Below are positions 5,363 to 62,163 of a stretch of 64,000 bases of DNA, piece by piece. Each line of letters opens with the position of its first letter. Positions within the stretch are counted from its first letter, which is position 1. The notes beneath the pieces were generated by a model that was given only the letters and a program-made list of their open reading frames with translations, did no database searches and had not been told where the DNA came from. A program made the position numbers and the translations under genes. The stretch is from an uncultured Actinomycetes bacterium (GTDB lineage Bacteria > Actinomycetota > Actinomycetes > Streptosporangiales > Streptosporangiaceae): NCBI GenBank assembly GCA_963847965.1, contig CAWKCG010000043.1, positions 258,191 to 322,190 on the forward strand, written 5' to 3'.

Positions 5363-6237
5363 CGGGCAAGCCCTAGGGCATGGGCCTCGGCGAGAATGCC
5401 GTCGGCGAACGGGCGGGGGGCGTAGCCAAGGTCGCGGACGGCATCATCGATGGCAAACGCCTTGTCCTCGGCCAGCCGTTGCAACTGCTCCGCGCTGATC
5501 GGGAAGCGACGGCCGAGCCGTTCGTAGCAGCGTGCGGCTGTCACGGCCGCGACAAGCGGCACCGGCACGAACCGGGCGCGGCTGTTCACCGCGTGGGCGG
5601 AAATCTGCAACAGGTCGGCGAACATCAACGGCATCGGGCCAGCCACGTCGTAAATGGTGCCTGCTGCGGCGGGCCGCTCCAGGGCGGCCAGCACCGCCCC
5701 GGCCAGGTCCGCCACGTGGACCGGCTGCTGGAGATGCTGCCCCCCGCCGGGTACCGGCACCACTAGGACGCGGTGGAGCACGGTGAGCAGTCGGGACAGA
5801 TTGCGGTCCTCGGGCGCGCCGTAGATCATGGTGGGCCGCAGGATTGTCCACTTCATCCCGGACTGCAGGATCAGCTGCTCGGCGTCCAGCCTGACTTGCT
5901 TCGTACGCGCCGACAGGCTCGTCGTTACGGCGGTCGTCGAGATAAAGACGCCGCGGCTAATGCCTGCCACGCGGGCCGCCTCCACAATCGCGGGGGCATG
6001 GCCGAAGCCGAGCGAGGCAAGATTGACTAGGGCGTCGCAACACGCCGCCGCGAATACCTCACCGAGCCCCACCGACTCGCCGAGATCACCGCGGGCAGGC
6101 TCCGCGCCGCGGTCGGCCACGATGCGGGCCGCCGCGTCGCTGCGTGCCAGGGCGACGCAGTGGTATCCGCGCCGGGTGGCCTCGGCCAGCACGTATCCGC
6201 CAAGGAAGCCGCTGCCTCCCGTGACCAGCACTCTCAT
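5359..6237 (-). CDS. NAD-dependent epimerase/dehydratase family (SDR-type) protein
   Basis: MRVLVTGGSGFLGGYV Rossmann N-terminus; 292 aa; sits in a sugar-modification context. Confidence 0.85.
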   Translation of the reverse strand: MRVLVTGGSGFLGGYVLAEATRRGYHCVALARSDAAARIVADRGAEPARGDLGESVGLGEVFAAACCDALVNLASLGFGHAPAIVEAARVAGISRGVFISTTAVTTSLSARTKQVRLDAEQLILQSGMKWTILRPTMIYGAPEDRNLSRLLTVLHRVLVVPVPGGGQHLQQPVHVADLAGAVLAALERPAAAGTIYDVAGPMPLMFADLLQISAHAVNSRARFVPVPLVAAVTAARCYERLGRRFPISAEQLQRLAEDKAFAIDDAVRDLGYAPRPFADGILAEAHALGLAR

Positions 6238-6295
6238 CGCGGCCTTCCATCCGCCACTTCTACAGACGCATCGGTCGCCTTGGCGGTGCCGTGCA

Positions 6296-7045
6296 TCATC
6301 TTTCCGTCGGGTTCACATGATCTGCGCCCTTGTGGGCCACGAACGTCAGGTTCTGGGTGACAATGTGGCCGCGCAGCATTCCTGTCTCGGCGGCTAGGGC
6401 GATCCGGTAGCAGGCGCTTACCACCTGCCAGGTCATGACGCGCGCCGCACTGACCAGCCCGTGCGCGACCGGTGGGGAAGAGCGTGCGAGGACTGAGTTG
6501 AAGCCGGCCGCGAGGGCGAGCTGACGGATGCTGCGCGCGGTGAACGACGTCTGATGCGTGAAGTCCCCGTCGCGGATATGCCCCCCGAGCGGGCTGACGG
6601 CGTTTGGGACCCGGCCCACGAAGACGCCGCCGGGCGCCAACGCCGCAGCCACGTCATCGAACGTCCGGAGAACCTCGGGCTTAGTGAAGTGCTCCAGCAG
6701 GTCGGTGGCCGTAACCGCGGCATAGTGACCAGGTTGCGCGGCGAGGACGGCCCGGAAGTCCCCCTGGCAGACCCGAGCCACGCCTGCCGCTCGGGCGAGT
6801 GCCGTCTGTTCAGGACTGATGTCAACGCCCTCTGCGTCAAAGCCGTCCGCCTCTAGTAGCCGGACCAACTCGCCGCGCCCGCAGCCGATGTCCACAACGG
6901 GGCCGGCTGCGGGCGGCGGCAGTAGGGGCCGAAGATCGCGGCGGTACACGAGAGCAGCCGCGTTGTCTCCACCGCGACCCGCATGCTGTGAGGCGTAGGC
7001 CTCGTAAAGCCGACTGCGCAGGTCGGTCAGGCTAGCGTCGATCAC
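6296..7045 (-). CDS. class I SAM-dependent methyltransferase
   Basis: Motif I VVDIGCGRGELV; acidic motif II (GVDISPEQ); 249 aa. Confidence 0.85.
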   Translation of the reverse strand: MIDASLTDLRSRLYEAYASQHAGRGGDNAAALVYRRDLRPLLPPPAAGPVVDIGCGRGELVRLLEADGFDAEGVDISPEQTALARAAGVARVCQGDFRAVLAAQPGHYAAVTATDLLEHFTKPEVLRTFDDVAAALAPGGVFVGRVPNAVSPLGGHIRDGDFTHQTSFTARSIRQLALAAGFNSVLARSSPPVAHGLVSAARVMTWQVVSACYRIALAAETGMLRGHIVTQNLTFVAHKGADHVNPTER

Positions 7046-7541
7046 ATTAGGATACTAGTCAAATACTCTCTGTAAGAAAAATCCTAATGCACGCACTCAG
7101 TCATTGATCATCCGCGGGTCTGTCGACCGTTCAGTTCCCGCACGAGCAACTCACCGGGCAGATTCGCTGATGGCTACCGTATTTCGGTGGTGCGTCGGCC
7201 ACCGCACTCGCTCATCGGGTGGGTAGCCACCGTCTCATGACCCCTTGCCCTAATTGTGTACATGTCGAAATAATCAGCATATCGCGCAAATGTACCTATG
7301 TAAGCTGATCTCTCGTAGATTTACCGATATTTCGTATATTTCTTTGCGGCGCAGCTGGTTACGAGTTATGATTATTGAATGTCCCCCGTCCGCGAAGGCA
7401 AGGCAGGCACTTGGTACGCTGACAGTGCGGTTAGTCGAGGTAAAGGCTAACGTCGTCTGCAGGTACTATCAGTGAATAGGCCCGTCTTCTAACTCGTCGG
7501 CGCCGGTTCAGAACCAAGCATCGCACTGGGGGAATTGCCCG

Positions 7542-53726: not shown

Positions 53727-54461
53727 TCAGGTCCCGCCGAACCGCTCGGTCTTGACGCGTTCCGGTGGATAGCCGAGTTCAATGAGGTCCCCGGCGACCG
53801 CCTCGACGAAGCTGGTGGGACCGCAAATGAACGCGAGCGGATGCTGGCTGGCTGGCCAGGCGGTTTCTGTCAGCATCGCGGCGTTCACTCGGCCGGAGTA
53901 ACCGGTCCAGCCGGGAGGCTGACTGCTGGTGAGCGTCCAGATCACCCGCACGCCGTCACGGTATTGGTCAAGTTCGCCGCGGTAGATCACGTCGGGCAGC
54001 GTGCGGGATGAGTACAGCAGGCGGGCCGGGACATCACTGCCGGTGCGCAGGCGGTGCCGTAGCATGGAGCGCAGCGGAACGACGCCCGACCCGCCTGCGA
54101 TCAGCATCAGCGGGCTATCGTCTGAAGGTTCCCACACGAAGTACCCGCCGATCGGACCGCGCAACTCCAGTACGTCGCCAACTCGCAGTTCCTCGGTAAG
54201 GTACGGCGACACCTCGCCGTTCTCGAGCCGCTGCACGGTGATGGCCAACGGCTCGCCGGGTGCTGAGGCGATCGAGTACGACCGCTCGGCGGCGTAGCCG
54301 TCTTCGGCGGTCAGCCGCACATCCAGATGCTGCCCGGCGCGATGCCCGGGCCAGTCGGGCGGCTTCAGCTCGATGGTGGCCACCGCGTCCGTTTCCCTGG
54401 CGATGGAGGTGACGGCGGCAGTCTGCCAGGTCAGTCGCCGGCGTACCGCTGTTGCTTCCAT
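53727..54461 (-). CDS. ferredoxin-reductase-type FAD/NAD(P)-binding oxidoreductase
   Basis: RSYSIAS FAD motif; MLIAGGSGVVPL NAD motif; ATG 54461 overlaps the upstream gene by 31 nt. Confidence 0.8.
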   Translation of the reverse strand: MEATAVRRRLTWQTAAVTSIARETDAVATIELKPPDWPGHRAGQHLDVRLTAEDGYAAERSYSIASAPGEPLAITVQRLENGEVSPYLTEELRVGDVLELRGPIGGYFVWEPSDDSPLMLIAGGSGVVPLRSMLRHRLRTGSDVPARLLYSSRTLPDVIYRGELDQYRDGVRVIWTLTSSQPPGWTGYSGRVNAAMLTETAWPASQHPLAFICGPTSFVEAVAGDLIELGYPPERVKTERFGGT

Positions 54462-55039
54462 GGGTCCCCATATATGTGGTAGCCGTAGCTTTCCCAGAAG
54501 CCGGGCGCGTCGTGGTCGCGCAGTTCCAGGCCGCGTACCCACTTGGCGCTCTTCCAGAAGTACAGGTGCGGCACTAGCAGCCGCGCTGGCCCACCGTGCT
54601 CAGGCTTGAGCGGCCCGCCGTCGTAGCCGAAGGCCACCCATGCCTTGCCGCCGGTGATGTCCTCGGTTGGCAGGTTGGTGGTGTAGCCGCCGTCGCAGAA
54701 CGCCAGCACGTAGGGGGCTCTGGCATCCACCTGATCCAGCAGCGTGTCCACCGACACGCCGCGCCACCGGGTGCCGAGCTTGGACCAGCGGGTGACGCAA
54801 TGGATGTCCACGGTAGCGGTCTCGGCCGGCAGCGCCTGCATCTCCTGCCAGGTCCAGGACCTGAGCGTGTTGCCGCCCTGGGTGATCGAGAATGTCCACT
54901 CCGCCAGGGGCGTGTGTGGTGTCGGGCCGGCGGAGAGCACCGGATAGTCCATGGTCACGTGCTGACCCGGCGGAACCCGGGCGTCTTCTCCGGCCGGTAT
55001 GCGGCTTCGGCCGCGAAAACCACGCGAAACAGGGCTCAT
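54431..55039 (-). CDS. sulfite-oxidase-like molybdopterin oxidoreductase
   Basis: VDIHCVTRWSKLGTRWRGV...GGPARLLVPHLYFWKSAKWVRGLEL. Confidence 0.8.
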   Translation of the reverse strand: MSPVSRGFRGRSRIPAGEDARVPPGQHVTMDYPVLSAGPTPHTPLAEWTFSITQGGNTLRSWTWQEMQALPAETATVDIHCVTRWSKLGTRWRGVSVDTLLDQVDARAPYVLAFCDGGYTTNLPTEDITGGKAWVAFGYDGGPLKPEHGGPARLLVPHLYFWKSAKWVRGLELRDHDAPGFWESYGYHIYGDPWKQQRYAGD

Positions 55040-55209: not shown

Positions 55210-57876
55210 TCAGCGCTGATGCGCGGACGGGGCGAGCAGGCCCAGGCCGCGAGCGGACTCGACCGCCTCGGCCCGGCTGTGCACGCCGAGCTTGACGTAC
55301 AGGTTGCGCAGGTGGGTCTTGACGGTGGTGGTTGAGACAGATAGTTCGCTGGCGATCTGCGGCGCCGACAGGTGGGTCGGCAGGTAGCGCAGCACTCGGA
55401 TCTCGCTTTTGCTGAGCGGTTCGGACGGCGGCTGCGGCCCGGCGGGCGGCGCAGGCCTGTTCCCGGCCAGCAGGCCGAGGATCTCGGCGCTCAGGGCCGC
55501 GTGTGCGGTGCCCTGCCGGACGTGACGCTCGAGCAGGCCGGGAGCGGGGTGGATCAAGAACCACAACAGCGCGCCGTCGGGCTCGGCCAGGTCGAGCGCG
55601 CGTTCGAGCGCGCGTCCGGCGGCCGGGTCGCCGAGCGCGTCCCGGGCGATCGCCTCGAGCAGGAATGCTTCCACCAGCCAGGATCGCCAGCCTACTCGGG
55701 CGGAGCCGTCCAGGACCGGCGCGAGTGCCACGATCGCCGCGTGCGGATCGTCCTGAGCGAGCCGTAGCATCGCAGCGGCAATGCGCATCTCCCCGCGGTC
55801 GCGGTCGCGGTCGCTGAGGCCGGCGAAGGCCCGGTCGGTCTCGCCGGCGCGCACCAGGGCGCGCACAAGCCAGGCCCGCAGGGGCCTGGCGAGCGGATGC
55901 GGCCCGGCGAGCCGCTGGGCGGACCGGAACGCGGCCACCGCGTTGGCGGCCCGGCCACGGCCCAACTCGAGCTGGCCGCGGACGTACTGGCCCCCCATGG
56001 CCGCCGCCGGGTTGGCTTCCGCTCTGAAAGTACGCTCGGCGCGCTGGACCCAGGCCTCCGCCTCGTCCAGCCGCCCCTGCCAGGCCAGGGCGGATCCAAG
56101 CGTCATGGAGGCGAAGCCCGCGAACAGATCGTCGGTCCAGCCATGCCGTTCGGCCAGGTCGATCGCCTGCCTGCTCAGCTCCGCCGCCCGCGGGAAAGAG
56201 GGCCGGTTGAGCTCGATCTCCGCCCTGTATACCAGGCCCATGAACTCGAGATAGGGCCGCCCGATCCGGCGCGCCAGCGCGGCCGCTTGCTCCAGGTGCG
56301 ACTCGGCCTGGTCGAGCCGGCCTGTCCACGTCTCGCTGTCGCCGATTTCGACCAGCGCCAGCCCGCGCAGCTCGTCGCCCAGGCCAGGCCGCACCGCCTC
56401 CGGGGCCTCCGTCGCCACCAGCAAGAGCTGTGCCTGCTCGGCCCGCGCCGAGAAGTTCCCGCCCCGCGCGACCACTAGCAGCCGGACCACCCCCCGCAGC
56501 ATTTGCGCCTGCCTGCGCCGGGTCTCCGGCACTGATGCCGCCGCCCGCTCGGCCAGCCTCAGGTACCGCTCCGCCGCCTCCAGCGACCCGCAGGCCAGCT
56601 CGTCGGCCGCGGCCACCGCCGCCAGCTCGGCATCGGCCGCGGGTGTCCCGGCGGGGAACCCGGCCATAAGCGCATGCACGGTCGCCTCCTGCCCGCCCAG
56701 GTACAGACTCGGCCAGTGGTCGGCCAGCAGCCGGGCGGCCAGCCCCCAGTCCCGCGCCGCCTGCGCGTGCCGGACCGCCTCCACCGCGAGGCCGCGCCCC
56801 GCAAACCACCCGGCCGCCAGCTCGTGCAGAGCGGCCTCCTCTACCGTCTCGGTGCGCCGCAGCTGCAGCCGCAGCAGGCCGGCGAACAGGTGGTGGTAGC
56901 GGAACCACGACCGTGCCGGGTCCAGCGACACCACGAACGCGTTCGCCTCCTCCAGATCCTGCAGCACCCGCTCCCCGCCGCTGCCCCCCGTGAGCAGGTC
57001 AGCCAGCTCGCCGTTGACCCGCTCCAGCACGCTGGTCCGCAGCAGCAGCCGCCTGACTTGCTCGCCCTGCCGGTCCAGCACCTCGGCCAGCAGGTACTCC
57101 GCGACCGTCCGTTCGGTGCCGGAGAACTCCGCCGCGAACCGGTCCGGATCCGGATGGGCAGCCAGCGACAACGCCGCCAGCCGCAACCCCGCCACCCACC
57201 CCTCAGTCCGCTCCACCAGCATCCCCACCGCCGGGTCGGACAGCTGCACCCCCGCCGCGGCGAACAGGGCCCGCGCCTCAGCCGCGGTGAACCGCAGGTC
57301 ATCCGCGCGGATCTCGGCCAGCTCCCCCTGCAGCCGCAACCGGTGCAGGCCCAGCCGCAGGTCATGCCGGGTAGCCAGCACGAACCGCAGCCTCTCGGGC
57401 GCCCGCATCACCAGCAGTTCCAGCTGCCGCAGCGCCTGGTCCGGGCCCAGCTCGTGCACGTCGTCGATCACCAGCCAGACCCGGTCCCCCAGCGGCGCCA
57501 GGTCCTCCAGCAGCCGCTCCACGATCGCCCACCCGTCCAGGTCCGGCGCCGCCGTCAACTCGCGTACCAGCGCTGATCCCAGATCCGTCTGGCGCAGCGC
57601 GTCCAGCACCGCCAGCCAGAACCGCTGCGGATCCCGCTCATCGCGCTCCACCGGCACCCACGCGGTGCACTCGGCCAGGCCCGCCACGCCGATCCAGGAC
57701 CGCAGCAGCACCGTCTTGCCGCTGCCCGGCGGGGCCGACACCACCGTTACCCGTGCCGCCCCGCCCAGCAGCTCAAACAGTCCCGGACGAGAGACAACTC
57801 CCCCCGGACCAGGACGAGCGAGGACCGGGGGACCGACCGGGAGGTGGCGGTACGCGGTCGCGTCCTTACGGCTCAT
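55210..57876 (-). CDS. LAL-family (large ATP-binding LuxR) transcriptional regulator
   Basis: Walker A SAPPGSGKTVLL; Walker B WLVIDDVHEL; TPR-like middle region; C-terminal LuxR HTH LSKSEIRVLRYLPTHLSAPQIASELSVSTTTVKTHLRNLYVKLG. Confidence 0.9.
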   Translation of the reverse strand: MSRKDATAYRHLPVGPPVLARPGPGGVVSRPGLFELLGGAARVTVVSAPPGSGKTVLLRSWIGVAGLAECTAWVPVERDERDPQRFWLAVLDALRQTDLGSALVRELTAAPDLDGWAIVERLLEDLAPLGDRVWLVIDDVHELGPDQALRQLELLVMRAPERLRFVLATRHDLRLGLHRLRLQGELAEIRADDLRFTAAEARALFAAAGVQLSDPAVGMLVERTEGWVAGLRLAALSLAAHPDPDRFAAEFSGTERTVAEYLLAEVLDRQGEQVRRLLLRTSVLERVNGELADLLTGGSGGERVLQDLEEANAFVVSLDPARSWFRYHHLFAGLLRLQLRRTETVEEAALHELAAGWFAGRGLAVEAVRHAQAARDWGLAARLLADHWPSLYLGGQEATVHALMAGFPAGTPAADAELAAVAAADELACGSLEAAERYLRLAERAAASVPETRRRQAQMLRGVVRLLVVARGGNFSARAEQAQLLLVATEAPEAVRPGLGDELRGLALVEIGDSETWTGRLDQAESHLEQAAALARRIGRPYLEFMGLVYRAEIELNRPSFPRAAELSRQAIDLAERHGWTDDLFAGFASMTLGSALAWQGRLDEAEAWVQRAERTFRAEANPAAAMGGQYVRGQLELGRGRAANAVAAFRSAQRLAGPHPLARPLRAWLVRALVRAGETDRAFAGLSDRDRDRGEMRIAAAMLRLAQDDPHAAIVALAPVLDGSARVGWRSWLVEAFLLEAIARDALGDPAAGRALERALDLAEPDGALLWFLIHPAPGLLERHVRQGTAHAALSAEILGLLAGNRPAPPAGPQPPSEPLSKSEIRVLRYLPTHLSAPQIASELSVSTTTVKTHLRNLYVKLGVHSRAEAVESARGLGLLAPSAHQR

Positions 57877-57927
57877 GGGGACTCCCGTGCCTGGATGTCG
57901 TCGCGGTGGTGGTTTTGGTCAGGGCGC

Positions 57928-58548
57928 TCAGGCGGTGGTCCCGCGGTGGCGCTGATAGTGGCGGGCGGCGCGGGCGCGGTTGCCGCAGGCCGCGGAGCAC
58001 CACTCACGGCGGGGATGGTTCTTGACGAAGTACAGGACGCATCCCGGGGCCAGACAGGCGCGAAGGCTTCGCCGGTCGCCGCGGCAGAACAGCACGATCG
58101 ATTCCTCGGCGATGGCGGACAGGGCCGCGCAGGCCACCGGGCCGCTGGCGCGGACGGTCCGCGCGGGTTCCTGGCCGGGGGCCCAGGTGAGGGCCGACCA
58201 GCGAGGTGCGGCGCCGGCCGCCTCGTTGAGCGCGCTGACGGCAGCGCGCAGGTCGCGGGTGCCCGAGACGGCGGCCGGGCGGGGGTCAGCGGTGGCCTCG
58301 GCGGCTAGGCGGCGTAGCGCGTCACGCAGGTCGATCAGCCGGTGGCCGGGCAAGTCGAGGTCGGCGTTGCTAAGGATGCCGGGGCTACCCAACATCATGA
58401 CGTCGAGGCGAGGGGAGACGGCGCTCAGCCAGGCCTGCGTGCCGTCAGGATCACGCAGCGCGTCGTGCACACCGTCCCGGTCGGCCCAGATGGTATTCAT
58501 CAGCTCGACGGGGAGCGGTTCGTTCAGCAAGGGCGCGTTCGTGGCCAT
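57928..58548 (-). CDS. CGNR zinc-finger (ABATE) domain protein
   Basis: C-terminal CLAPGCVLYFVKNHPRREWCSAACGNRARAARHYQRH. Confidence 0.8.
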   Translation of the reverse strand: MATNAPLLNEPLPVELMNTIWADRDGVHDALRDPDGTQAWLSAVSPRLDVMMLGSPGILSNADLDLPGHRLIDLRDALRRLAAEATADPRPAAVSGTRDLRAAVSALNEAAGAAPRWSALTWAPGQEPARTVRASGPVACAALSAIAEESIVLFCRGDRRSLRACLAPGCVLYFVKNHPRREWCSAACGNRARAARHYQRHRGTTA

Positions 58549-60852: not shown

Positions 60853-61218
60853 CAACCAGACCGCAGGTGGCGATCTACCGGGTCACCATGATCGTGTCGG
60901 ACCCTGACCGGGCAGAACATGACTATGTCAAGACCTTCGGGTGCCGCGTCGAACAACGCGGTGACCTTGAACCTTGACTGATTCACGTACTGTGCCACCC
61001 GCTGGAACTGCTCGCCTTTGCGCCGGGACGCATACCAGAGGGATGACGCGTCGCAGATTGAATTGCCGCTGCCGCTGGTCGCAAACAGGAACTGCCGGTC
61101 CGCGGTGAGGATTACGTTGTCGGTGCCTTCGAAGGCCTCTGGCGTGCTCCCCGGGCCGCTGACCGGGTTGTAGCTCCCGGTATCGGCGCTTACGACGAAG
61201 ATGCGAGCCTACCCGCCA

Positions 61219-61788
61219 TCACATGGGGTCCTGGTCCGGCTTACCCATGGACATGGGGTCCTGGTCCGGCTGGCCCATGGACATGGGGTCCTGGTCCGGC
61301 TGGCCCATCGACATGGGGTCCTGGTCCGGCTGGCCCATCGACATGGGGTCCTGGTCCGGCTGGCCCATCGACATGGGGTCCTGGTCCGGCTGGCCCATCG
61401 ACATGGGGTCCTGGTCCGGCTGGCCCATCGACATGGATTCTTCGTGTGACATGCTGATCCCTTCCCTGGTCCTTATCTGCGTGCTCGCCCGGCACGCAGG
61501 CGTGTGCTGAGTCCCGCCTGCCGGGATAAAGGCTGATCCTGGTTGGCTCAAGTTGGCCAGCCCGGAGAGGTCGACGCTGGTCACGTCCAGGCGCCTGACC
61601 AGCACCATGAGGACGCTGCCGCAGGTTCGGCAGCGGACGACGGTACCGGGCGCCTGCCGGTAGACGACGAGCTCGGCCACCGGCCTGTTGGCACCACACG
61701 TTGCGCAGGTGCTGCCCGCAGCGGTCATCTCCGCGCCGAAGACGTCGATCAGCAGGCCGCCGATCGCATTGCCGTCCACTGGGTCCAT
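61219..61788 (-). CDS. DUF6510-like zinc-ribbon protein fused in frame to a (MSMGQPDQDP)x7 tail
   Basis: MDPVDGNAIGGLLIDVFGAEMTAAGSTCATCGANRPVAELVVYRQAPGTVVRCRTCGSVLMVLV... There is no stop before TGA 61219-61221. An internal ATG (MSHEES..., 61449-61451) has GGGAAGGGA upstream. Confidence 0.55.
   Translation of the reverse strand: MDPVDGNAIGGLLIDVFGAEMTAAGSTCATCGANRPVAELVVYRQAPGTVVRCRTCGSVLMVLVRRLDVTSVDLSGLANLSQPGSAFIPAGGTQHTPACRASTQIRTREGISMSHEESMSMGQPDQDPMSMGQPDQDPMSMGQPDQDPMSMGQPDQDPMSMGQPDQDPMSMGQPDQDPMSMGKPDQDPM
61221..61437. repeat. 30-bp tandem repeat, 7.2 copies, near-perfect
   Basis: Unit ACATGGGGTCCTGGTCCGGCTGGCCCATCG. Copies 3-7 are identical. Copies 1-2 differ at 1-3 positions. 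Confidence 0.95.
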
Positions 61789-62163
61789 CAGTGCCCTCCT
61801 GTCCCGCTGAACCGCTCGGTCTTCACCCCGGTCAGCTCCTCCCCCATCAGCGGGCCGTCCTGCGAGGTATGAGTCCACCTTCGCCCCGCCCCTGGAAGCC
61901 CACATCGTCAAGAGTGCTAAATGCACTGTTCACCCCGAATCCAGCCGGTCAGGCCCGGCATCGTCCATCACCTTTTCGACTAGGGCGCTGTCTTAGGTTG
62001 AACCGGTCGGCGGCCGTCACAGCCCAAAAGCGAGTGCCGCCAGATTTGCCGCAGTCCGTGCCGTACAGGCAACGGCGGGCCGGACGGCCACACCCCGTCT
62101 GGCTAATTCGGTGGGATCACGCCGGCCAGCGGCCGGCCGTCGGCCAAGCCTGGGAGCCGTCCT

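What the first reader, a model, noticed from the sequence alone, without database searches (positions are those of the whole stretch)
61219..61788. Seven perfect decapeptide repeats (MSMGQPDQDP) fused to a DUF6510-like zinc-ribbon protein
A 30-bp unit is repeated 7.2 times (61221-61437) and five copies are identical, which implies recent expansion or ongoing slippage. The repeats are in frame with, and not separated by any stop from, a DUF6510-like domain with two CxxC pairs. An internal ATG (61449-61451) with a good SD (GGGAAGGGA) could also produce the repeat peptide alone (MSHEES + repeats, 76 aa). The Met/Asp/Pro-rich M-x-M pattern resembles the methionine-rich Cu(I)-binding stretches of copper-resistance proteins. 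All three frames on the opposite strand are also open, simply because of the periodicity. Copy number is likely to vary between isolates. The stop codon sits exactly at the repeat border.
Basis: partly seen in the sequence, partly recalled or inferred. Interest (0 to 1): 0.65.

Follow-up and report, generated by a model that had tools for sequence, protein, structure and literature searches.

The report
Methionine-rich repeat mini-gene beside DUF6510
The 30-bp repeat array is real, but comparison with about 70 related soil actinobacterial loci shows that it belongs to a small gene of its own, encoding a 77-residue methionine-rich acidic repeat peptide, which in this genome happens to lie in frame with the upstream DUF6510 zinc-ribbon gene.

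Summary
The array is real: 7 units of 30 bp on the minus strand (61434-61225), five of them identical. It encodes 6x MSMGQPDQDP plus 1x MSMGKPDQDP and is in frame, without a stop, with a DUF6510 domain (Pfam E 1.4e-26).

The fusion is incidental. Among 70 related loci with a determinable state, 18 are fused, 43 have a stop before the repeats and 9 overlap out of frame. The three relative frames occur at 35, 19 and 16. Spacer indels are almost never multiples of 3.

What is conserved is a Shine-Dalgarno site (GGGAAGGGA), an ATG (61452-61450), an MSHEES leader and an M-S-M-G-x-P-D-x-E-x repeat. This defines a separate 77-aa, 21% Met, acidic, disordered peptide. Its units show coding-type constraint.

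The start is orthologous to that of a 430-aa lactonase-type beta-propeller gene in sister loci. The window keeps only a decaying fragment of that gene after the stop. Copy number ranges from 1 to 9 and differs between near-identical loci.

The usual context is a molybdopterin oxidoreductase (PF00174), an FNR-like flavoprotein, DUF6510 and then the peptide. No copper genes lie nearby. The best functional guess is a cytoplasmic methionine redox sink analogous to MrpX/MsrP. Cu(I) binding or a functionless relic remain possible. No function has been tested.

The parts
61534..61788 (-). DUF6510 gene proper: an 85-codon Zn(Cys)4-type small protein (MDPVDGNAIGG...VDLSGLANLSQPG). In this genome its ORF reads on to 61219 because the spacer has no stop.
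   Evidence: Pfam PF20120 E 1.4e-26, 92.6 bits. Invariant C28, C31, C53, C56. The AF2 domain model has pLDDT 85.5. Homologues without repeats are 79-104 aa long.
61788..61828 (-). Remnant of the 3' end of an FNR-like flavoprotein gene (...GVKTERFSGTGGH*). Its TGA overlaps the DUF6510 ATG (TGATG).
   Evidence: Translation compared with the L003 FNR-like C-terminus ...ERVKTERFGGTGGH. Contigs of relatives diverge from the window exactly at 61828.
61467..61533 (-). Spacer between DUF6510 and the peptide gene. It is open in frame here but is not protein-constrained. It contains the TAA (in another frame) that ends DUF6510 at 104 aa in many relatives.
   Evidence: Gaps in pairwise spacer alignments: 477+70 not a multiple of 3 against 13 that are. 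Spacer identity of 0.81 is close to the third-codon-position identity of the domain, 0.79. AF2 pLDDT is below 50 for residues 81-117. Three different reading frames are used by homologues.
61458..61466 (-). Shine-Dalgarno sequence GGGAAGGGA, 5 nt upstream of the peptide's ATG.
   Evidence: Conserved (GGAAGGGA / GAAGGGA / GAAGGAG) before the ATG in all inspected loci, including loci where the ATG starts a 430-aa propeller gene.
61219..61452 (-). Small ORF of 77 codons plus stop: MSHEES + 6x MSMGQPDQDP + MSMGKPDQDP + M. It has 16 Met (21%), 14 Asp, 14 Pro and 13 Gln, no hydrophobic or Cys residues and no signal peptide.
   Evidence: The start is conserved in 74 loci. Units show coding-type constraint (identity 0.865 at codon positions 1+2 against 0.756 at position 3), similar to the DUF6510 domain (0.909 / 0.79). 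Called as a stand-alone protein elsewhere: P0121, P0320, P0356.
61225..61434 (-). Tandem array of 7 x 30 bp. Five units are identical, one has a synonymous change, and the last has a synonymous change plus Q>K.
   Evidence: TRF and exact unit list.
61053..61208 (-). Pseudogene fragment of a lactonase-type 7-bladed beta-propeller gene (..*ARIFVVSADTGSYNPVSGPGSTPEAFEGTDNVILTADRQFLFATSGSGNS..). It lies in the +1 frame relative to the peptide, is preceded by TAG and has no start. Weak similarity continues to about 60860.
   Evidence: tblastn of the L121 430-aa protein: residues 56-107, 58% identity, E 6e-13. Translation. Pfam PF10282 for the full-length relative. Equivalent fragments in about 17 other loci carry frameshifts and stops.
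54431..55039 (-). Intact 202-aa molybdopterin oxidoreductase (sulfite-oxidase/YedY fold), 6.2 kb away on the same strand. This is the gene that heads the operon in relatives.
   Evidence: tblastn 74% identity to L003 MoCo. PF00174 for the orthologue. Best NCBIfam similarity is to MsrP, E 1.7e-9, far below cut-off.
53727..54542 (-). Intact FNR-like flavoprotein (FAD_binding_6 + NAD_binding_1). Here it is not followed by a DUF6510 gene.

Best explanation
Two genes lie here, not one fusion gene.

Gene 1 is an ordinary DUF6510 zinc-ribbon-like protein of about 85 residues.

Gene 2 starts at its own Shine-Dalgarno site and ATG (61452). It encodes a 77-residue, cytoplasmic, intrinsically disordered, acidic peptide made of M-S-M-G-x-P-D-x-(E/D)-x decapeptides, 21% Met.

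In this genome the roughly 110-nt spacer happens to contain no in-frame stop. Ribosomes that translate DUF6510 will therefore also produce a 189-aa read-through product. That product is an accident of indels in a non-coding spacer, and relatives show every frame relation.

The peptide gene shares its ribosome-binding site, ATG and MSHEE codons with a 430-aa beta-propeller gene that follows DUF6510 in sister lineages. In the window's lineage the propeller body was lost and a decaying fragment remains. The Met-rich head survived as a small gene whose 30-bp unit expands and contracts by slippage or unequal recombination.

Shown here: the gene anatomy, independent translation signals, coding-type constraint, copy-number instability and the genomic association MoCo oxidoreductase > FNR-like reductase > DUF6510 > peptide.

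Inferred function: the peptide is a methionine-based redox buffer. Its exposed Met residues are oxidised sacrificially to Met sulfoxide and then re-reduced. The reducing system may be the neighbouring sulfite-oxidase-fold molybdoenzyme, fed by the FNR-like flavoprotein, with the 4-Cys DUF6510 as a possible electron carrier or adaptor. This would make it a cytoplasmic actinobacterial analogue of the periplasmic MrpX/MsrP(YedY) system.

I put the anatomical part at about 0.85 and the functional part at about 0.35.
For: Anatomy:
- Census of 161 loci: 74 have the Met-rich ORF after DUF6510. Of these, 18 are fused, 43 are separated by a stop (frame 0: 17, +1: 13, +2: 13), 9 overlap out of frame and 4 run off the contig.
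- SD+ATG+MSHE is conserved in all of them.
- Spacer gaps are 547 non-3n against 13 that are 3n.
- DUF6510 without repeats is 79-104 aa long.
- Stand-alone gene calls exist: P0121, P0320, P0356.

Selection:
- Unit identity among 20 lineages is 0.865 at codon positions 1+2 and 0.756 at position 3. The DUF6510 domain gives 0.909 and 0.79. The adjacent propeller fragment has 0.70 gapped identity, with frameshifts and stops.
- An unforced unit profile gives M1 0.77, S2 0.82, M3 0.89, G4 0.80, P6 0.92, D7 0.76 and E/D9 0.84.
- Ser2 varies mostly at the synonymous position.

Origin:
- The full-length propeller with an MSHEEAPSMQEPQAQMMQ... head occurs in L115, L121, L122, L128, L138 and L151.
- Fragments lie after the peptide stop in the window and about 17 other loci.

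Disorder: AF2 predicts no secondary structure in the repeats and pLDDT below 50 in the linker.

Context:
- FNR-like lies directly upstream of DUF6510 in 96 of 131 loci.
- 29 peptide loci have the complete PF00174 + FNR-like + DUF6510 + peptide order.
- The best NCBIfam similarity of the molybdoenzyme is to MsrP.
- A Met-rich N-terminal tail also occurs on the SDR gene that follows DUF6510 in L054 and L067.

Precedent:
- MrpX is a small protein with 20% Met and 44% charged residues. It is encoded in the yedY1-yedZ1-mrpX operon, oxidised by hypochlorite and re-reduced by YedY (PMC4436054).
- Msr enzymes prefer unfolded, polar, Met-clustered substrates (bioRxiv 10.1101/243626).
Against: - There is no expression or protein evidence for the peptide. 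Metatranscriptome contigs of relatives about 90% identical cover only the DUF6510 and FNR part.
- The molybdoenzyme is far below the MsrP model cut-off (37 bits against 207), so its substrate is unknown.
- MrpX and MsrP are periplasmic, whereas this peptide has no signal peptide.
- In the window and in L002, L004, L005, L006, L009 and L014 the upstream MoCo and FNR genes are deleted or truncated while the peptide gene is kept. This argues that the peptide does not strictly depend on them.
- Some lineages have only one unit or none (L012, L015, L132, L139).
- Some arrays in nanopore-derived MAGs are frameshifted (L005, L006, L008).
- Concerted evolution within arrays and shared ancestry inflate the apparent conservation.
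- The direction of evolution is not resolved. The peptide could be a relic of the propeller 5' end, or the propeller could have captured the peptide gene's start.
Confidence: 0.5

Rival explanations
1. The peptide is a soft-metal (Cu(I)/Ag(I)) buffer or chaperone. Each unit offers two thioethers (M-x-M) plus carboxylates or His, so an array would bind several Cu(I) ions.
For: The MxM spacing is conserved (M1 0.77, M3 0.89), and Asp7 and Glu/Asp9 are conserved. Some lineages have His at position 7 (MQMGAPHEES). The Cu5 site of CueO uses 2 Met + 2 Asp, and Met-rich disordered domains recruit Cu(I) (PMC11494321). A unit here has exactly 2 Met + 2 Asp.
Against: The peptide has no signal peptide or any hydrophobic segment (median LIVFWYC fraction 0). 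It is therefore cytoplasmic, whereas known Met-rich Cu sites are extracytoplasmic. No HMA (GMTCxxC), DKTGT or CPC motifs occur in real ORFs in 414 kb around 72 loci, including the whole 64-kb window. Neighbours are a molybdoenzyme, FNR-like, SDR, GH15, LuxR/MalT, BON and TetR genes. The peptide has no Cys.
Confidence: 0.15
2. The small ORF has no function of its own. It would be the leftover 5' end of a dead beta-propeller gene, still preceded by a good ribosome-binding site, whose internal 30-bp repeat drifts in copy number like a minisatellite. The apparent conservation would come from recent common ancestry, concerted evolution and GC-rich ORF persistence.
For: The window has a propeller pseudogene fragment directly after the stop, in another frame and with a TAG. 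Copy number is hypervariable, differing in 25 of 33 near-identical pairs. Some lineages have reduced it to one unit or lost it. All six frames of the unit are open, so ORF length is no evidence. The upstream operon genes are also decayed in the window and several relatives.
Against: In the same lineages the propeller fragment has accumulated frameshifts and stops and shows no codon-position asymmetry (0.55 / 0.58 ungapped; 0.70 gapped). The repeat unit keeps a coding pattern as strong as that of DUF6510. AT-rich ATG codons are kept twice per unit in a 68% GC genome across lineages whose DUF6510 third positions are only 79% identical. The peptide gene persists in two different downstream contexts: with a propeller fragment plus GH15, and with an SDR and no detectable fragment. 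The SD and ATG are kept in 74 loci.
Confidence: 0.2
3. The DUF6510-repeat fusion is the functional product. On this view the Met-rich tail is a C-terminal extension of DUF6510, for example a tethered substrate or a docking arm.
For: The 189-aa ORF is uninterrupted in the window, and 17 other loci are also fused. Many fused proteins of 128-199 aa are in the protein database. Recurrent tolerated fusion of neighbours hints that the two products act in the same place (Rosetta-stone logic, an inference).
Against: At least 52 of 70 loci are not fused, and the frames are close to evenly distributed (35/19/16). The loci were ranked by similarity to the fused query, which favours fused ones. The linker is unconserved, frameshift-tolerant and predicted to be disordered. 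The same start also serves a 430-aa propeller gene.
Confidence: 0.08
4. The array is a multi-core precursor of a ribosomally made, post-translationally modified peptide, or it acts at the DNA or RNA level as an iteron-like set of binding sites or a structured RNA.
For: The core-like units are identical and repeated. A weak 6-7-bp hairpin lies in the spacer, 72.6% paired with some covariation.
Against: No maturase-type genes are conserved nearby. The variation has codon periodicity, which points to protein-level constraint. There is no Rfam hit. The spacer fold z-score is -0.08, and RNAalifold finds no consensus structure.
Confidence: 0.03

Closest known systems
MrpX, the methionine-rich peptide of the yedY1-yedZ1-mrpX (MsrPQ) operon of Azospira suillum (PMC4436054)
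   Same: Both are small proteins with about 20% Met, with the rest mostly polar or charged. Both are predicted or known to be unstructured. Both are encoded at the end of an operon headed by a sulfite-oxidase-fold (PF00174) molybdoenzyme and its electron donor.
   Different: The window peptide has no signal peptide, so it is cytoplasmic. It has a strict tandem decapeptide architecture with unstable copy number. It is acidic and rich in Pro and Gln rather than rich in Lys, Glu and Asp. The partner reductase is a soluble FNR-like flavoprotein plus DUF6510 instead of the membrane haem protein MsrQ. The molybdoenzyme is a short 202-aa form that does not reach the MsrP model cut-off. No sequence homology was shown or tested, and no experimental data exist.
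Met-rich Cu(I)-recruiting segments of copper-resistance proteins (CueO Met-rich domain, PMC11494321; CopA/PcoA, CusF MxM, from general knowledge)
   Same: Both have clustered M-x-M motifs with Asp or His in a flexible segment. The unit carries 2 Met + 2 Asp, the same ligand set as the CueO Cu5 site.
   Different: Those segments are parts of exported proteins within copper operons. This one is a free-standing cytoplasmic peptide with no copper-homeostasis gene in its neighbourhood.
DUF6510 (Pfam PF20120) small 4-Cys proteins of Actinomycetota
   Same: The upstream gene is a clear member, with an HMM score of 92.6 bits, four invariant Cys and the usual position directly after an FNR-like gene.
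   Different: Ordinary members are 79-104 aa long. Here the ORF is 189 aa only because it reads through a spacer into the next gene. No paper mentions the family. The confident AF2 model has no significant PDB neighbour, with best E 0.35 and only weak beta-tent-like hits.
N-terminal Met/Gln-rich tail of the lactonase-type beta-propeller gene that follows DUF6510 in sister loci (L121, L128, L138)
   Same: They share an orthologous SD, ATG and MSHEE leader and a Met-rich low-complexity head (alignment A3).
   Different: There the head is 20-26 residues long and leads into a 430-aa propeller. Here the propeller is reduced to a pseudogene fragment, and the head is expanded to seven decapeptides and ends at a stop.

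Membership tests
DUF6510 (PF20120) | Match to the Pfam HMM above the gathering score | tested here: met
   92.6 bits against a cut-off of 26.4, E 1.4e-26, profile positions 4-83 of 86.
DUF6510 (PF20120) | Two conserved CxxC pairs | tested here: met
   C28, C31, C53 and C56 are invariant in A1 (31 sequences) and A2 (97 sequences).
DUF6510 (PF20120) | Single-domain protein of about 80-105 aa | tested here: not met
   The window ORF is 189 aa. Comparison shows the excess is read-through into the next gene.
MrpX-like sacrificial Met-rich peptide | Small protein with about 20% Met and otherwise polar or charged residues | tested here: met
   77 aa with 16 Met (21%). The family median is 18% Met and 25% Asp+Glu, with hydrophobic residues near 0. 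Charged residues make up about 23% in the window, against 44% in MrpX.
MrpX-like sacrificial Met-rich peptide | Signal peptide / periplasmic location | tested here: not met
   The N-terminus is MSHEESMSMG, and no hydrophobic stretch occurs anywhere in the peptide.
MrpX-like sacrificial Met-rich peptide | Encoded in one operon with a YedY/MsrP-type molybdoenzyme and its redox partner | tested here: inconclusive
   29 related loci have the order PF00174 enzyme, FNR-like, DUF6510, peptide on one strand. However, the enzyme is not a confirmed MsrP (37 bits against a cut-off of 207), MsrQ is absent, and in the window the pair lies 6.2 kb away.
MrpX-like sacrificial Met-rich peptide | Oxidised by reactive chlorine or oxygen species, re-reduced by the reductase, and induced by the stress | not testable with these tools
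   This needs biochemistry or a cultured host.
MrpX-like sacrificial Met-rich peptide | Sequence homology to MrpX | not tested
Given the low complexity, homology would in any case be hard to establish.
Met-rich Cu(I)-binding segment of copper-resistance systems | MxM / MxxM motifs with His or Asp co-ligands | tested here: met
   M1-x-M3 together with D7 and E/D9; His7 in some lineages.
Met-rich Cu(I)-binding segment of copper-resistance systems | Extracytoplasmic location, and part of or adjacent to copper-homeostasis genes | tested here: not met
   There is no signal peptide. No HMA, DKTGT or CPC motifs occur in real ORFs in 414 kb of flanks of 72 loci. The neighbours that were identified are unrelated to copper.
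Met-rich Cu(I)-binding segment of copper-resistance systems | Measured Cu(I) binding | not testable with these tools
   This needs metal titration of a synthetic peptide.
Conserved DUF6510-repeat fusion architecture | Same reading frame and no stop between the domain and the repeats across relatives | tested here: not met
   18 fused, 43 separated by a stop and 9 out-of-frame overlaps. Spacer indels are 547 non-3n against 13 that are 3n.

The most novel reading that the evidence does not exclude
Soil Streptosporangiales-like actinomycetes may carry an undescribed cytoplasmic methionine-sulfoxide repair and scavenging module. It would consist of a short sulfite-oxidase-fold molybdoenzyme, an FNR-like NAD(P)H reductase, the 4-Cys DUF6510 protein as electron carrier or adaptor, and a dedicated Met-rich decapeptide-repeat 'sponge'. 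The sponge gene would have been born from the 5' end of a decayed beta-propeller gene, and its capacity would be tuned by rapid gain and loss of 30-bp units.
Probability: 0.2. Interest if true: 0.75.

Novelty: new variant of a known kind. Interest (0 to 1): 0.5.

Why it matters
Three points would matter if the reading is right.

First, it corrects an annotation artefact. The 128-199-aa 'DUF6510' proteins in public databases are read-throughs of two genes, and the real second gene is usually missed or merged.

Second, it defines a conserved family of small proteins, at least 70 loci in uncultured soil Actinomycetota. The family has a clear sequence rule (M-S-M-G-x-P-D-x-E-x)n and a fixed genomic partner set. 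This offers a first handle on the function of DUF6510 and of the short cytoplasmic sulfite-oxidase-fold enzymes, neither of which is characterised.

Third, it is a clean natural example of a small gene that persists, and expands by tandem duplication, after the body of its parent gene has decayed.

If the methionine-redox reading holds, the MrpX/MsrP principle of a sacrificial Met-rich peptide would extend from the proteobacterial periplasm to the actinobacterial cytoplasm.

Tried and rejected
- **Read support for copy number.** Only short-read Logan contigs hold the region, with at most 34% of the words. They break at the array, and no nanopore run is listed. Copy number in this assembly stays unverified.
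- **Transcription.** Soil metatranscriptome contigs from relatives about 90% identical cover the DUF6510 and FNR part only. They say nothing about the repeats.
- **Exact-protein look-up of the 189-aa product.** It is not on record.
- **Word-indexed protein search with the peptide alone.** It returned a single hit, P0121.
- **Exhaustive phmmer search.** It gave 197 hits, mostly unrelated low-complexity repeats, and only a few family members.
- **Pfam and NCBIfam on the peptide.** Nothing was found. In some searches I supplied the peptide one base out of frame. One search used the correct sequence for Pfam; NCBIfam was not repeated with the correct sequence.
- **RNA element in the spacer.** The fold z-score is -0.08, there is no Rfam hit and RNAalifold finds no consensus. 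A hand-drawn 7-bp stem is 72.6% paired with weak covariation, which is not convincing.
- **Promoter and terminator scans.** They returned no hits.
- **Structure of DUF6510.** The domain-only model is good (85.5), but Foldseek against the PDB gives nothing significant (best E 0.35; cereblon isoform 4, LGP2 CTD, Hfq). A profile search of PDB sequences also gave nothing. The recurring weak beta-tent hits (cereblon/CULT, MsrB, Gfa, Yippee) are only a lead.
- **Literature.** There are 0 papers on DUF6510. Nothing was found on actinobacterial Met-rich repeat small proteins or on short cytoplasmic sulfite-oxidase-fold enzymes.
- **RiPP precursor, iteron and programmed frameshift ideas.** These were rejected for lack of any supporting feature.
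Full report
**1. The observation**

The sequence and Tandem Repeats Finder (61216-61436, period 30, 7.4 copies, 97% matches, score 407) confirm the array.

On the minus strand the units start at 61434, 61404, 61374, 61344 and 61314. All five are ATGTCGATGGGCCAGCCGGACCAGGACCCC. The unit at 61284 has TCC for TCG, a synonymous change. The unit at 61254 has TCC plus GGT AAG, which gives Q>K. These are followed by ATG TGA.

The peptide repeats are therefore 6x MSMGQPDQDP plus 1x MSMGKPDQDP, not seven perfect copies.

The minus-strand ORF 61219-61926 has no stop between a DUF6510 domain and the array. The Pfam match is PF20120, 92.6 bits against a cut-off of 26.4.

GC at the third codon position is 0.8-1.0 in this frame through both parts, with GC2 near 0.4. 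This is the usual pattern of a 68% GC actinobacterial gene.

It is preceded by GGGAAGGGA (61466-61458) and a 5-nt spacer. The stand-alone product is 77 aa. No other such array exists in the window.

**2. The fusion is incidental**

A protein search with the 189-aa ORF gave 236 relatives. Many were 128-199 aa with lengths stepping by 10 residues, but others were 104-aa forms that stop in the 'linker'. Still others read the repeats in another frame, giving HVDGPAGPG....

I fetched DNA for 80 species-representative genomes, all uncultured soil Actinomycetota (Streptosporangiaceae, Trebonia, Actinocrinis and Danish 'MFD' bins). I also fetched 80 JGI soil-metagenome contigs.

A census found a Met-rich ORF after DUF6510 in 74 loci:
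- 18 are fused in frame, including the window and L020.
- 43 are separated by a stop (relative frame 0: 17; +1: 13; +2: 13).
- 9 overlap out of frame.
- 4 run off the contig.

Because loci were ranked by similarity to the fused query, 18 of 70 is an upper bound.

In pairwise alignments of the spacer, 547 gaps are not multiples of three and 13 are. Spacer identity (0.81) equals that of the third codon positions of the domain (0.79). AlphaFold gives pLDDT below 50 for residues 81-117. DUF6510 genes without repeats are 79-104 aa long.

The spacer therefore behaves as non-coding DNA that in some genomes happens to lack a stop.

**3. What is conserved**

In every locus a purine-rich SD (GGAAGGGA, GAAGGGA or GAAGGAG) precedes an ATG that opens with MSHE, MPHE or MSDE.

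An unforced profile was built from 188 units in 59 arrays, excluding the anchor unit. It gives M1 0.77, S2 0.82, M3 0.89, G4 0.80, P6 0.92, D7 0.76 and E/D9 0.84.

Among 20 lineages (180 pairs), the unit consensus is 0.865 identical at codon positions 1+2 and 0.756 at position 3. The two codons fixed by my pattern were excluded. The DUF6510 domain gives 0.909 and 0.79. Ser2 varies almost only at the synonymous site. Position 2 is the most conserved, which also discriminates the sense frame from the antisense frame that shares its wobble positions.

The family median is 18% Met and 25% Asp+Glu, with essentially no hydrophobic residues. AlphaFold predicts no secondary structure in the repeats.

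Gene callers have called the peptide separately elsewhere: P0121 at 43 aa, P0320 at 67 aa and P0356 at 48 aa.

**4. Origin and instability**

In L115, L121, L122, L128, L138 and L151 the ORF that starts at the orthologous SD+ATG+MSHEE is a 430-aa protein. It reads MSHEEAPSMQEPQAQMMQAPQGHMMQ-DGHLYIQTNEV... and matches Pfam PF10282, the lactonase 7-bladed beta-propeller.

The window keeps residues 56-107 of that protein directly after the peptide's stop. The fragment is in the +1 frame, is preceded by TAG and has no start. About 17 other loci keep the same fragment, with different frameshifts and stops. Its gapped identity is 0.70 with no codon asymmetry.

The neighbour is therefore decaying while the peptide gene is maintained.

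A short-sequence tree nests the full-length propeller loci within the peptide loci. I cannot say whether the peptide gene is the surviving head of the propeller gene, which I favour, or whether the propeller captured the peptide's start.

Copy number ranges from 1 to 9. It differs in 25 of 33 pairs of loci whose DUF6510 DNA is at least 97% identical.

**5. Context**

In relatives the order on one strand is as follows:
- A 202-aa molybdopterin oxidoreductase (PF00174).
- A 247-aa FNR-like flavoprotein (PF00970 + PF00175).
- DUF6510, whose ATG overlaps the FNR stop.
- The peptide gene.

FNR-like directly precedes DUF6510 in 96 of 131 loci with enough upstream sequence. Of the peptide loci, 29 have the complete four-gene order.

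The window is a rearranged version. Only the last 13 codons of an FNR-like gene remain before DUF6510 (61788-61828), and an SDR gene lies upstream. Contigs from other soils that are 95-99% identical share this junction, so it is not a chimera.

An intact MoCo and FNR-like pair sits 6.2 kb away (53727-55039) without a DUF6510 gene after it. Several relatives also carry internal deletions in the upstream pair.

The molybdoenzyme's best NCBIfam similarity is to MsrP, but it falls far below the cut-off. Its PDB relatives are sulfite oxidases at E about 1e-4.

In L054 and L067 the gene after DUF6510 is an SDR with a Met-rich N-terminal extension.

No copper-homeostasis signatures occur in 414 kb of flanks.

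**6. DUF6510 itself**

No paper mentions the family. With a 97-sequence alignment the domain model is confident (pLDDT 85.5, pTM 0.75). It has an N-terminal helical hairpin and then a beta-sheet carrying the four Cys.

Foldseek against the PDB finds nothing significant (best E 0.35, TM 0.37). A profile search of PDB sequences also finds nothing.

Weak top hits in both runs fall in the Zn(Cys)4 beta-tent group: cereblon isoform 4, the LGP2 C-terminal domain and, in the first run, MsrB1 and Gfa. I treat this only as a lead.

**7. Mechanism**

Shown: two genes, independent translation signals, protein-level constraint on the repeat, slippage-type copy-number change, and linkage to a molybdoenzyme, FNR-like and DUF6510 cluster.

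Inferred: the peptide is a cytoplasmic methionine redox sink. The precedent is MrpX of Azospira suillum. MrpX is a small protein with 20% Met and 44% charged residues, encoded after yedY1-yedZ1. It is oxidised by hypochlorite and regenerated by the PF00174 enzyme YedY/MsrP (PMC4436054). Msr enzymes prefer unfolded, polar, Met-clustered substrates (10.1101/243626).

Differences from MrpX are the cytoplasmic location, the strict repeats, a different electron donor, and retention of the peptide gene where the enzyme genes are lost.

The copper reading is chemically plausible, since the unit has 2 Met + 2 Asp like the CueO Cu5 site (PMC11494321). It lacks any contextual support. A functionless relic cannot be excluded, but it fits poorly with the contrast between the maintained unit and the decaying fragment next to it.

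**8. Verdict**

The feature is an undescribed family of Met-rich repeat small proteins. In kind it is closest to MrpX, so I class it as a new variant of a known kind. Interest is moderate (0.5). The function is untested, but the family is well defined, it gives DUF6510 and a class of short molybdoenzymes a testable partner, and it documents a small gene outliving its parent gene.

Noticed in passing
window 53727-55039 (minus) and 61788-61828: An intact molybdopterin oxidoreductase and FNR-like pair has no DUF6510 gene after it. Meanwhile the DUF6510 gene 6.2 kb away is preceded by only the last 13 codons of an FNR-like gene. This looks like two paralogous operons, one of them deleted down to a stump. 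The junction at 61828 is shared by contigs from four soil metagenomes that are 95-99% identical to the window.
   Followed up: partly
window 61843: All four metagenome runs with close relatives lack one base here relative to the window. The site is in non-coding sequence upstream of DUF6510. It could be a lineage difference or a single-base assembly error in the window.
   Followed up: no
L054 about 6170-7100 and L067 (loci from genome contigs): In these more distant DUF6510 loci the next gene is a short-chain dehydrogenase with a Met-rich N-terminal extension (MAEQMTSPQMGSPQMGEPTMAEQMGRPHVGAPMAEPMASPMTMPM...). This is a second, independent case of a Met-rich head on the gene that follows DUF6510.
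   Followed up: partly
L115 3001-4630: Here DUF6510 is fused in frame to the full-length 430-aa beta-propeller, giving a 542-aa ORF. It is another accidental read-through across the same spacer.
   Followed up: no
proteins P0253, P0280, P0309: An unrelated-looking family of small secreted proteins has a signal peptide followed by tandem decapeptides (I/V)-x-M-G-(T/S)-P-D-x-(D/E)-P. These share the core MG-x-PD-x-DP with the window's unit. Their source organisms are unknown.
   Followed up: no
window 61490-61520 (minus), alignment A4: A short inverted repeat in the spacer (GCAGGCG ... CGCCTGC) is 72.6% paired across 42 loci, with some A-U, G-U and G-C exchanges at one pair. However, RNAalifold finds no consensus and the fold energy is no better than that of shuffled sequence.
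   Followed up: yes
window 61534-61788 (DUF6510 model mc06d3a7dc4e0): The confident AlphaFold model (pLDDT 85.5) has no significant PDB neighbour. The weak top hits recur in Zn(Cys)4 beta-tent folds (cereblon isoform 4/CULT, LGP2 CTD, MsrB1, Gfa). DUF6510 may be a structurally undescribed small metal-binding fold.
   Followed up: partly
L005, L006, L008 (MFD long-read MAGs): The repeat arrays in these assemblies contain internal frameshifts that go out of frame and back in. These may be homopolymer errors of nanopore assemblies rather than biology. They warn against reading single-locus frames from such MAGs.
   Followed up: no
window 55210-58548 (minus): An 888-aa MalT/LuxR-type regulator (AAA, TPR, GerE) and an ABATE/CGNR zinc-finger protein lie between the peptide locus and the intact MoCo and FNR-like pair. 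The large regulator recurs near DUF6510 in 15 of 20 inspected loci (cluster C1).
   Followed up: no
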